Shown here one piece after another: positions 4,924 to 64,000 of a stretch of DNA of 64,000 nt. Source of the DNA: Amoebidium appalachense (lineage: Eukaryota > Protista > Ichthyosporea); contig CAVNZM010000010.1 of NCBI GenBank assembly GCA_963693365.1, forward strand, positions 3,532,159 through 3,596,158, read 5' to 3'. The number at the start of each line of letters is the position of its first letter. Position 1 is the stretch's first letter. The notes below the pieces were generated by a model, which did no database searches, had not been told where the DNA came from, and was given only the letters and a program-made list of their open reading frames with translations. The position numbers and the translations under genes were made by a program.

Positions 4924-7292
4924 ATGAGCCGCTTCTCTGTTCGCTTTATTTCTCTTTTCATCATCTCTGCCCTTTTTATCCACACTGCTTCCCCAAGTGC
5001 ACCGCCGACGGAACATGTTGACTTAGCTAAACCACCAGATTCAGAAACATGCGGTAGCTACAACCAGCGGACAGGGGAAGTCGAAACATGTAAAGATGGC
5101 GGTTCACGTCCGGAAACATTAGGTGCTGGGGATGGTGAGATGGGCAGAGATGGGACCAAAATGCTGGCTGCAGGAAGCGGAGACGGCACTCCGCTTGAGT
5201 TGGGTATGTGTGGCGGCTATGTTGATTCGTTTAGATCTTCGACTGCCCGAGCTTTTCTTTCTATCTTTCCGTTGTCTTCCTCTCCCTTTCCGAACTTTCT
5301 CGTTCTCTCCACCTCTCTGTATCTTCCTGTCTCTGTATCGTTTTCTCTCTCTCTCTCAACCCCCCTCCCCCCCCCCCCCCCCCCTTTCTTTCTCTCTCTC
5401 TTTCTCTCTCTCTCTCTTTCCCCACCTCTTTCTCTCCCCGCTTCTCTCTCTATTTCTCTCTCCCTCTCTCTCTCTCTCTCCCCCCCCCCCCCCCCCCGCC
5501 TTCCCTGTCTCCCTCCCTCCCTCGATCCCTCCCTCCCTCCCTCCCTCCCTCCCTTCCTCCCTCACTTTCTCTCTCCCTCCCTGCCTGCCTCCCTCCCTCC
5601 CTCCCTTCCCATCCCTCTTTTTCTCTCCCTCCCTCTCTCCCTCCCCCCTTCCCTCCCTCCCTCCCTCCCTCCCTGTCTCTCTCCCTCTTCCCCCCCTCTC
5701 TCTCTCTCTCACCCCCTCTCTCCCTCTCTCTCTCTCTGTCCTTCTCTCTCTCTATCTGTCTGCCTTCGCCCACTCTATCACTCTCTCTCTCTCTCTCTCT
5801 CTCTCTCTCTCTCTCTCTCTCTCTCTCTCTCTCTCTCTCTCTCTCTCTCTTTTTTTTTTCTCTCTCTCTCTCTCTCCCTCCCTTCCATCCCTCCCTCCCT
5901 CCCCCCCCCCCTCCCCCTCCCCCCCCCGTCTCCCCTCCCCTCTCTCCCTCTCCCCCCCTCTCCCTTCTTCCTTCTCTGACAGGGGTGTTTTTACTCCACC
6001 TTTCCCAGTATGCCCCTTCTCCTCCCCCCTGCCTCCCCCCCCACACACGCACACACACACACCACCACCAACACACCACCACCCATCCCCTCCCCTCTCT
6101 CCTACGTTTGCATTTCAAAAGCCGCCCGCGTGTTCACGCTCACGAGGAAACCCGCTTCCACCCCCACACCCCTCCTCCTCCCTCTCGTTCTTTCCAAATG
6201 CCTGCCCCCCCCCCTTTCCCCCCCCCCCCCCCCCCCCCCCCTCTTTCCTTCCCCCCCACCCTCCCCTCTCTCGTACGTTTGCACTCTAAGACAGCCCATG
6301 CGCGCACGCTTAGCAGCTTACCAGAAAACCCAAACGTACATACGTGTGTGCACAAAACACAAAAAGACCACCTGCCAACATTATCCCCCCCCCCCCCCCC
6401 CCCCCCCCCCGACAAAAAAAAAAACAAAAAAAAAAAACCTTTGGGCCCCATCTACCTTATCATCCTTACCGCTACTGTCTCAGCCACCTGTTTCAGACAT
6501 ACTCCACCCTTCCCCTCCCCCCCCCCCCCAACCCCCCAACCCCCAACCTCCCTCCCCCCCCCCCCCCCTCAAAGCTCCCTGGTGTGTGCCTTGCATTATT
6601 TGGGATCTGTGTGGTCATGTGCTGTCCGTCGTGAAGATGCACGTTGTACTCTCTAAGCTCATGCCGACTCATCCCCCCTCCCCCCCCCCCCCCTTCCCCT
6701 CCGCCCCCCTCCCCCCCCCTTGTCCCCTCTCCTGTGGAAGACTTGGACCTGCTCATGGGTATGGGCTCTGCCTGATGCATATTCTTTATGTGTGGTTTGC
6801 ACTCTGCATTGTGTTGTTACGGCTATGAATATGTACCTCGTCCTCTATAACGCATTCCGCATTTTACCCCCCCCCCCCCCCCCCCCCCCCCCCCCCCCGC
6901 TTTTTCCAACCCACCCCCTGCTTCCCTCCTCCTGAGGATGGGCTTCAGCTTATGTTTCTGATGTTGAATACCTGAACGTTTGCCCTGCCATGTGTCCTGC
7001 ACCGTGTTTCTCATCATGTAGTTGTACTTCGTGCGGTGTTCCACATTCTAACCTCCCCCCCCCCCCCTCTCGCTTAACAGGGTCGTCTGCGCAACTGGAC
7101 AAGATTGGGCCGATGGTAGTTCAGATGGACGGCACACTAAAGTTGATCGAAAACTGGGAGGGAATGACGGAGAGGGAGAGGCTGGTGACGTGGAAAAGAG
7201 TCACGGAGAGAAACAGGCAGAGACTTGCGGCTATACAAAGGTTGAACGGGGAGAGCGGAGAGGAGGGAGAGAAGGAGGGTGTAAAAATCTGA
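4924..7292 (+). CDS. Conserved hypothetical protein with N-terminal signal peptide (2 exons: 4924-5203, 7081-7292)
   Basis: Hydrophobic N-terminus. Phase-1 intron G|GTATGT…TTAACAG|GG joins in frame. C-terminal motif LDKIGPMVVQMDGTLKLIENWEGMTERERLVTWKRVTERNRQRL resembles the uncharacterised fungal/protist 'LGPxVVNxDGTLSRIxNWxxMTxxE' family (recalled, not searched). Confidence 0.75.
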
Positions 7293-7354
7293 ATGTTTAG
7301 TTTATAATTTTGACTATTATTAGTATTAATTTTTTGTGCGCGTCTTGATGGTAT

Positions 7355-63195: not shown

Positions 63196-64000
63196 CTGCA
63201 AGTGGTTTATTTTTTTTATTTTTTTTTTGTGGGGGGGGGGGGGGGGGGGGGGGGGGGGGGGTGAATGTGTGTGTGTGTGTGTGTGTGTGTGTGCGCGCGC
63301 GCGCCCCGCTGGGGGGGAAGGGGCGGAGGAGAGTGGGGGGAGGGGGGGGGGGGGGGGGGGGACTGGGAAGGGTAAGTGTGTGCGTGTGTGTGTGTGTGTG
63401 TGTGTGTCCCGGGGGGAGGGAGAAGGGGGGGGGGGGGGGAGGGGGGAAGCGAAAAGGGTTAGAATGGGTTACAAATCACGAAGTACGCGTTCATGACGGA
63501 CAACCTCAGCACCAAGTTCAAAAACCCATAAACATTATATATCATAAGCAGAGCCCATCCTCGGGGGGGGGGGGGGGGGGGGGGGGGGGGGGAGGAGCAA
63601 AGGGGGTAAGAATGTGTAGTAGGTGTGGGTGCTCTGTGGTTGCGTCGGTGGGTGTGGGTCATGGGGAGAAGGGGGAAGGAAAGGAAACGTCGAGGTCGAT
63701 AGTGTGCGCGGCGGCGCAGGAGTTATCAAATGGGTGGGTGATGAACCCAGTTAACATCTGTTTGCCCATAGGTGATAAAACATCGCCTAAAGGTTCTCAC
63801 GGGCCATATTGTTACCTAATATTTGCGTCTTCCCCCCCCCCCCCCCCCCCCCCCCCCCAAAACCCCCAACCTCCCTCTCCCCCCCAATACGAAAGTCGGC
63901 ACTAAAATGGAAACCAAAAAAAAGATGATAAGATAACGACCGAAAGGGGGGGGGGGTCGGGGGGGGGATTGCTGGAAGATCAGAAACAGGCATATGCCCC

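What the first reader, a model, noticed from the sequence alone, without database searches (positions are those of the whole stretch)
6585..63562. Intron-restricted, host-co-oriented retro-like repeat (family A) anchored on poly-C tracts
Seen: five young copies (11368-11643, 26059-26235, 27331-27675, 34371-34569, 58773-59117+) and about 15 older ones (~6585-6665, 6730-6865, 6928-7052, 10765-10860, 12080-12210, 23393-23590, 24530-24600, 25240-25345, 25605-25685, 25955-26035, 28060-28165, 30978-31070, 61790-61940, 62555-62640, 63459-63562). The young copies share one fixed end (…TACTTCGTACTTTTTGACGCATTCAA then poly-C) and differ in length at the other end, which mostly also abuts poly-C. Every copy I found is in an intron (five different genes, both strands; the 63459 copy is in a presumed RPN2 intron) and points the same way as the host transcript. 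I saw none in the poly-C-rich intergenic stretches (35100-38200, 43000-57300). Established: a fixed 3' end with variable 5' truncation is the signature of target-primed reverse transcription, and intronic retroelements are usually depleted, not enriched, in the sense orientation. Inference: a retroelement that targets C-tracts on the non-template strand of transcribed introns, possibly in a transcription- or splicing-coupled way.
Basis: partly seen in the sequence, partly recalled or inferred. Interest (0 to 1): 0.85.

Follow-up and report, generated by a model that had tools for sequence, protein, structure and literature searches.

The report
Poly-C-targeting Penelope-like repeat in Amoebidium introns
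Twenty copies of a non-coding repeat sit in introns next to runs of C and all point the way of their host gene; they are likely truncated copies of a Chlamys-type Penelope-like retroelement, a known C-run-targeting kind, seen here in a single-celled relative of animals.

Summary
All 20 listed copies were recovered, with no other copy found by the profile; all lie inside five host genes, in host sense. The element is about 920 nt, longer than reported, non-coding and abundant in two public DNA runs. About 1 kb from the longest copy lies a separate, truncated reverse-transcriptase fragment, also flanked by poly-C and in host sense. It is 96% identical to an Amoebidium protein with Chlamys-type Penelope-like architecture (N-terminal GIY-YIG without CxxC, CxC motif, C-terminal RT). 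Chlamys elements are published (C)n targeters whose new insertions in Chlamydomonas were all intronic. Family A is therefore most likely a non-autonomous Chlamys-type family; its tie to this RT is inferred, not shown. Introns here carry poly-C mostly on the sense strand (85 against 19), which explains most of the orientation. A residue remains: 20 of 82 intronic sense-C sites are filled, against 0 of 56 other tracts. That residue weakens to P 0.009 with clustered copies merged and 0.07 for young copies alone, so transcription-coupled targeting is neither shown nor excluded. No genome was available for the decisive test.

The parts
58773..59690 (-). Longest family A copy (~918 nt, non-coding), poly-C on both sides, in a ribophorin II intron; internal C7 run 105-112 nt from the fixed end
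11368..11643 (-). Young 5'-truncated copy, fatty-acid hydroxylase intron
26059..26235 (-). Young 5'-truncated copy, syntaxin-18 intron
27331..27677 (-). Young 5'-truncated copy, syntaxin-18 intron; a duplicated neighbouring intron end has the poly-C without the element
34371..34570 (+). Young 5'-truncated copy, histidine phosphatase (PGAM5-like) intron
6579..7052 (+). Three old copies (6579-6672, 6730-6862, 6926-7052) in the presumed intron of a small gene without Pfam family
10765..10860 (-). Old, weak copy (E 0.0013); poly-G on its 5' side, poly-C on its 3' side
12080..12215 (-). Old copy, fatty-acid hydroxylase intron
23393..23590 (-). Old copy whose internal C-run is replaced by a long poly-C, the 5' part resuming beyond it
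24512..26036 (-). Old copies 24512-24600, 25233-25346, 25605-25686, 25955-26036 in syntaxin-18 introns
28056..28165 (-). Old copy interrupted by a T-run and G-run
30977..31115 (-). Old copy 30977-31070 and an extra ~20-nt end-only copy near 31094-31115
61790..63562 (-). Old copies 61790-61946 (no poly-C flank), 62555-62644 and 63459-63562 in ribophorin II introns
60630..61298 (-). Separate family: 5'-truncated, twice frameshifted 3' end of a Chlamys-type Penelope-like RT gene, poly-C on both sides, host sense; likely representative of the enzyme class that moves family A
58902..58975 (-). Partial hammerhead-like match (stem II, GAAA, stem III), 18.8 bits against a gathering score of 34; not a canonical ribozyme

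Best explanation
Family A is likely a non-autonomous Chlamys-type Penelope-like retroelement of Amoebidium whose RNA would be copied into poly-C tracts by target-primed reverse transcription, and its intronic, host-sense placement likely follows mostly from where and on which strand poly-C lies. Shown: fixed end, graded truncation of the other end, poly-C on the same strand at both ends of all five young copies, no coding match, a Chlamys-type RT family in the same window with the same flanks and orientation, and sense-strand poly-C skew in introns. Inferred: a GIY-YIG endonuclease nicks the G strand, the C-rich RNA end pairs with it and primes cDNA synthesis, and early stops give the truncations. 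Also inferred: the enzyme comes in trans from this or a related family. The empty antisense and intergenic tracts would reflect clustering, faster turnover of intergenic DNA and selection.
For: 20 of 20 copies confirmed. Summed contig depth is lower toward the variable end in two DNA runs, with 9,222 and 9,633 contigs laid. Contigs join a fixed end to internal positions of another copy, one at the internal C-run (table 5c), as in partial tandems. The RT fragment is 96% identical to EukProt Amoebidium parasiticum protein P0002. P0002 has N-terminal GIY-YIG (I-TevI catalytic-domain hits for the alignment), an invariant CxC, a DK motif and a terminal RT. It falls outside the CxxC-bearing clade in a 67-sequence tree. 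A 3,207-nt contig of that family ends at 60630, by the poly-C. Literature: (C)n targeting, 5' truncation and non-autonomous families (PMC8557442); all new Chlamys insertions intronic, median 128 bp, broadly consistent with (C)n distribution (PMC9977147). Skew. A paralogous intron end has poly-C without the element (only the 3' side aligns).
Against: No sequence link between family A and the RT family: their 3' ends differ, whereas published non-autonomous Chlamys generally resemble their partners' 3' ends. Poly-C availability alone under-predicts the pattern: 20 of 82 intronic sense-C sites filled, 0 of 56 other tracts, including 0 of 36 sense-G tracts in introns and 3' flanks. Copy 61790 is in sense without poly-C flanks. 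A weak hammerhead-like match is untypical of most Chlamys.
Confidence: 0.65

Rival explanations
1. Same element, but insertion is truly coupled to host transcription: the machinery would prefer C-tracts whose G strand is the template strand of an active gene.
For: 20 of 82 against 0 of 56 tracts (Fisher 1e-5 with copies taken as independent; 0.009 for 9 clusters). The RT copy and two short extra matches are also in sense. Filled genes look like housekeeping genes (my judgement), while GH114 (0 of 7 sense-C tracts) and the BTB upstream stretch (0 of 9) are empty.
Against: 15 of 20 copies are old, so survival and selection shape the pattern. Five young copies alone give P 0.07. For orientation alone, gene-by-gene P is 0.06-0.14 and 0.11-0.17 with 9 clusters. 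The site classes were drawn after seeing the data. In Chlamydomonas the intronic bias was broadly consistent with target distribution.
Confidence: 0.22
2. The element makes its own targets: the telomerase-related RT would stutter on C-runs and lay down or lengthen poly-C, so the intronic skew would partly be a product of insertions and my null would be circular.
For: 8 of the 10 old copies found at E<0.2 by the young-copy model either start 105-111 nt from the end, at the internal C7 run, or (23393) are split there by a long poly-C. An end-only copy of ~20 nt exists.
Against: None of the 5 young copies ends at the internal run. (CA)n, (CT)n and masked single-copy intron sequence show the same skew (34:14, 11:1, C-G skew 0.11). 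3' flanks have the opposite skew in 7 of 8 genes. 53 sense-C tracts carry no detectable copy. Ordinary slippage also lengthens C-runs.
Confidence: 0.08
3. Family A is moved by a different RT, a hammerhead-bearing canonical Penelope-like family or a LINE, and the Chlamys-type fragment next to it is a bystander with the same target.
For: Partial Hammerhead_1 match. The 3' end is unlike that of the RT family. LINE-like fragments lie in the window (the resemblance is recalled, no Pfam hit).
Against: The match is far below the gathering score, and I could not place an intact catalytic core by eye. There is no poly(A) tail and no tRNA head. (C)n targeting is reported for Chlamys.
Confidence: 0.12

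Closest known systems
Non-autonomous Chlamys Penelope-like elements of Chlamydomonas reinhardtii (Chlamys-N4_cRei with Chlamys-9_cRei; MRC1)
   Same: (C)n target, short 5'-truncated insertions, intronic location, partial tandems, no discernible target-site duplication, no canonical hammerhead (PMC9977147 section 7; PMC8557442 parts 3-4 and section 15).
   Different: The host is an ichthyosporean. No 3'-end similarity to the candidate partner was found. The passages I read give no orientation relative to host genes.
Autonomous Chlamys clade (Naiad/Chlamys N-terminal EN+ PLEs)
   Same: For the RT family at 60630-61298 and P0002: N-terminal GIY-YIG without the two cysteines, CxC motif, GxKF, DK, C-terminal RT, 938-1054 aa.
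   Different: Reported hosts were green algae, Chara, spike mosses and Physarum. P0002 has DKA, the form described for Naiads.
Naiad elements of animals
   Same: Domain order, DKA motif, microsatellite targeting, abundant truncated 3' ends.
   Different: Naiads keep the CCHH zinc finger and prefer (TA)n; P0002 lacks CxxC and groups outside that clade.
LINE/SINE pairs such as L1/Alu (recalled)
   Same: Fixed 3' end, 5' truncation; orientation in introns influenced by target-strand composition and selection.
   Different: A-tailed, T-rich targets and antisense excess in introns; none of this is seen here.

Membership tests
Chlamys PLE (RT family 60630-61298 / P0002) | GIY-YIG endonuclease N-terminal to RT | tested here: met
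   Pfam GIY-YIG at residues 27-79 of 938 (21.3 bits, just under the 22.6 cut-off); alignment hits I-TevI structures; RT motifs are C-terminal
Chlamys PLE (RT family) | No CCHH zinc finger inside the GIY-YIG core | tested here: met
   No CxxC between GIY and YIG; outside the CxxC clade (support 0.965) in a tree of 67 unnamed homologues
Chlamys PLE (RT family) | CxC motif, GxKF/Y and DK motifs before RT | tested here: met
   C342, C344, G381, D470, K471 invariant in 16 of 16 rows
Chlamys PLE (RT family) | Insertion-in-fingers domain between RT3 and RT4 | tested here: inconclusive
   About 90 residues lie between D628 and Q725; no canonical PLE was aligned for comparison
Chlamys PLE (RT family) | Groups with named Chlamys proteins in a tree | not tested
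   No named Chlamys protein was among the homologues returned
Non-autonomous Chlamys (family A) | Insertion into (C)n with fixed 3' end and 5' truncation | tested here: met
   5 of 5 young copies have same-strand poly-C at both ends; truncation at 176, 200, 276, 344 nt and ~918 nt
Non-autonomous Chlamys (family A) | Partial tandem (pLTR-like) arrangements | tested here: inconclusive
   Back-joints in public contigs (table 5c) and head-to-tail neighbours 25955/26059; no terminal repeat inside the longest copy
Non-autonomous Chlamys (family A) | 3' end similar to an autonomous family (general, not universal) | tested here: inconclusive
   Not similar to the one RT family in the window; other families of the genome could not be examined
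Non-autonomous Chlamys (family A) | No canonical hammerhead ribozyme | tested here: met
   Only a partial match, 18.8 bits against 34
Non-autonomous Chlamys (family A) | Mobilised in trans by a Chlamys RT | not testable with these tools
   Needs an assay or new-insertion data
tRNA-derived SINE | tRNA-like head, A-rich tail | tested here: not met
   No tRNA gene in the window; no A tail at the fixed end

The most novel reading that the evidence does not exclude
A Penelope-like element that reads the direction of host transcription: it inserts only into C-tracts whose G strand is being transcribed as template, so every copy lands in sense inside an intron and is re-expressed within host pre-mRNA, while its telomerase-related RT lengthens the poly-C tracts it later reuses.
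Probability: 0.2. Interest if true: 0.72.

Novelty: new member of a known kind. Interest (0 to 1): 0.36.

Why it matters
It extends Chlamys-type Penelope-like elements, reported from green algae, some plants and a slime mould, to a unicellular relative of animals. The likely host genus is culturable and has long-read genomes of several isolates (PMC11244446), so the target choice of these elements, whose mechanism is still open (PMC8557442 section 15), can be tested from polymorphic insertions. If the leftover sense and intron bias survives a genome-wide null, it would be evidence of transcription-coupled targeting by this class. If it does not, this is an ordinary microsatellite-targeting repeat in a new host.

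Tried and rejected
No whole genome is held, so the genome-wide orientation and location test was not run. An exact 26-nt pattern found 0 stretches in metagenome contigs. No RNA holder was on record in the run search; two runs guessed to be RNA hold both families as contigs, which gives neither strand nor level. The 71-codon ORF in family A (59259-59471) had 25 candidates and none scored E<=1; tblastn of 37 long homologues found RT only at 60652-61298. A conserved RNA structure at the 3' end was rejected: 0 consensus pairs in 16 copies, and z -0.14 for one young copy. A functional hammerhead was rejected as below threshold. The idea that family A is the 3' UTR of the RT family was rejected, because the long contig of that family ends at 60630. 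The generic repeat finder was swamped by microsatellites, and clustering of tract flanks was partly cut from view. Three look-ups of earlier findings returned nothing. The ESM Atlas gave only unnamed GIY-YIG clusters. One script to locate reading frames was not run; frames were taken by coordinates instead.

Full report
Observation. BLASTN with 58773-59430 and a masked self-comparison recovered the five young copies and several old ones. Leave-one-out recovered 18 of 18 training copies; the two copies left out of training scored E 0.0013 and 0.0091; the reversed window gave E 0.91 at best. Young copies are 94-100% identical. All five have poly-C on the same strand at both ends; among old copies, 61790 has none and 10765 has poly-G on its 5' side. 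Contigs of public runs show that the longest copy reaches about 59690. 9,222 and 9,633 contigs of two DNA runs lie on it, and summed depth is lower toward the variable end. Depth is not copy number, but the family is clearly abundant.

Host and genes. Pfam supports a fatty-acid hydroxylase (minus), a DOMON/copper monooxygenase (plus), syntaxin-18 (minus), a histidine phosphatase (plus), GH114 (minus), two BTB genes (minus) and ribophorin II (minus) (31 frames scanned). The small gene at 4920-7290 has no family and rests on ORF and splice signals. Gene spans were drawn by hand from these frames. All 20 copies fall inside five of these genes, in sense (3, 3, 9, 1 and 4 copies). The stretch 43000-57300 is not purely intergenic. 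The host is very likely Amoebidium, from a 96% protein match labelled A. parasiticum; this rests on a transposon protein only. About half of the A. appalachense genome is transposon (PMC11244446, passages).

A candidate enzyme. Six-frame translation showed an RT fragment at 60652-61298, minus strand, in a ribophorin II intron, with poly-C on both sides. It matches residues 840-1054 of P0003 in three pieces; the two frameshifts are absent from contigs of the four runs laid. The full protein P0002 has an N-terminal GIY-YIG, invariant CxC and DK motifs and a terminal RT, and no CxxC in the nuclease. In a tree of 67 homologues of 880-1300 aa (shorter and longer ones and P0003 left out; midpoint root; no named references), the CxxC-bearing proteins form one clade (support 0.965) and P0002 lies outside it. 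These are the features given for Chlamys in PMC8557442 (I read parts 1-4 of 10 and section 15). A 3,207-nt contig of this family ends at 60630, so family A is not its 3' UTR, and the two 3' ends are unlike. Family A has no coding match and no tRNA, only a sub-threshold hammerhead-like piece, and no conserved fold.

Precedent. Chlamys elements target (CA)n and (C)n, are 5'-truncated, form partial tandems and include non-autonomous families (PMC8557442). In Chlamydomonas mutation-accumulation lines, all Chlamys insertions were intronic, median 128 bp, broadly consistent with the (C)n distribution (PMC9977147, section 7 read whole). The core of the finding is therefore known behaviour.

The null test. 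Of 150 C or G tracts of 10 or more, 104 lie in the seven gene bodies: 85 with C on the sense strand and 19 with G; away from copies, 53 and 15. (CA)n:(TG)n is 34:14, (CT)n:(AG)n is 11:1, and masked intron sequence keeps a C excess of 0.11; 3' flanks reverse the skew in 7 of 8 genes. So sense orientation is expected about 80% of the time. For 20 of 20, P is 0.007 pooled (Fisher 0.014) and 0.07 gene by gene; with tract cut-offs of 8 and 15 the gene-by-gene P is 0.06 and 0.14. Intergenic tracts are 0 of 30 filled, against about 7 expected (Fisher 0.0015). Merging neighbours into 15 or 9 clusters gives 0.02-0.05 or 0.11-0.17 for orientation, and 0.012 or 0.07 for location. Taken together, with the two BTB upstream stretches counted as introns, 20 of 82 intronic sense-C sites are filled against 0 of 56 others: P 0.009 for 9 clusters and 0.07 for the five young copies. 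The classes were set after seeing the data, filled sites count as sense-C by construction, and 15 copies are old. The skew explains most of the pattern; a residue remains that one window cannot assign to targeting, selection or turnover of intergenic DNA.

Mechanism. Inferred from the Penelope model in PMC8557442: the nuclease nicks the G strand of a tract, the RNA's C-rich end pairs with it, cDNA is primed there, and early stops give the truncations, with any target duplication hidden in the poly-C. Supporting details: contigs join a fixed end to internal positions of other copies, one at the internal C7 run, and a duplicated intron end beside copy 27331 has poly-C without the element, though only its 3' side aligns. 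Of 10 old copies found at E<0.2 by the young-copy model, 8 begin or are split at the internal C7 run, whereas none of the 5 young copies ends there. This may reflect microhomology joining, later insertions, expansion of that run, or an older short subfamily.

Novelty. I found no report of Chlamys-type elements in ichthyosporeans (paper searches; listings only, except the papers named). 'Penelope' and 'Chlamys' occur 0 times in the main text and text supplements of the Amoebidium genome paper; figures were not visible and may list such families. 'Amoebidium' occurs 0 times in the Chlamys paper's supplement. PMC9940879, PMC11512509 and PMC13159263 were seen as passages only. No paper on Chlamys orientation in introns turned up (listing). 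The library lacks most subscription papers. Verdict: a new member of a known kind, with a modest open question on strand-specific targeting.

Noticed in passing
window gene bodies and 3' flanks: Strong transcription-linked strand asymmetry: introns are C-rich on the sense strand, while 3' flanks are G-rich (7 of 8 genes). Some introns have a G-rich 5' part and a C-rich 3' part (for example 61400-62230, 13170-13955).
   Followed up: partly
window:11816-11874 vs 11245-11303: A 59-nt, 88% identical duplicate of an intron end plus exon start of the fatty-acid hydroxylase gene, flanked by C-rich tracts, 570 nt from the original.
   Followed up: no
window:26400-27815: Tandemly duplicated short exon-like units inside the syntaxin-18 gene (26545-26629 vs 27188-27272, 82%).
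   Followed up: partly
window:16259-16925 and 43682-44348: A 670-nt, 97% identical repeat, both copies outside the annotated genes; the second lies next to a LINE-like RT fragment at 44495-45094 (resemblance recalled; no Pfam hit).
   Followed up: no
window:47472-49348 and 52400-54149: Two paralogous BTB-domain genes, 75% identical in DNA; the second is frameshifted.
   Followed up: partly
window:49477-50773 and 59740-60040: Other short repeated segments ending at poly-C (for example 49992-50096 vs 50200-50304, 95%); possibly further C-targeting families or local duplications.
   Followed up: no
window:59480-59630: The 5' part of family A looks like an intron (TG repeat, pyrimidine tract, AG); Penelope-like elements are known to keep introns. 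No spliced joint was among those shown.
   Followed up: partly
window:2397-3266 (-): Uninterrupted 290-codon frame with a weak Herpes_teg_N match (E 0.012, below cut-off); may be virus-derived in a genus known for giant-virus insertions.
   Followed up: no
window:6385-6437, 28101-28146, 34622-34660, 37915-37962: Poly-C directly followed by poly-A recurs many times, once inside a family A copy.
   Followed up: no
window:7149-8074, 28522-28861, 40899-41252: Tandem arrays: ~190-210-nt units after the small gene's last exon, 42-nt units in a syntaxin-18 intron and ~42-nt units in a GH114 intron.
   Followed up: no
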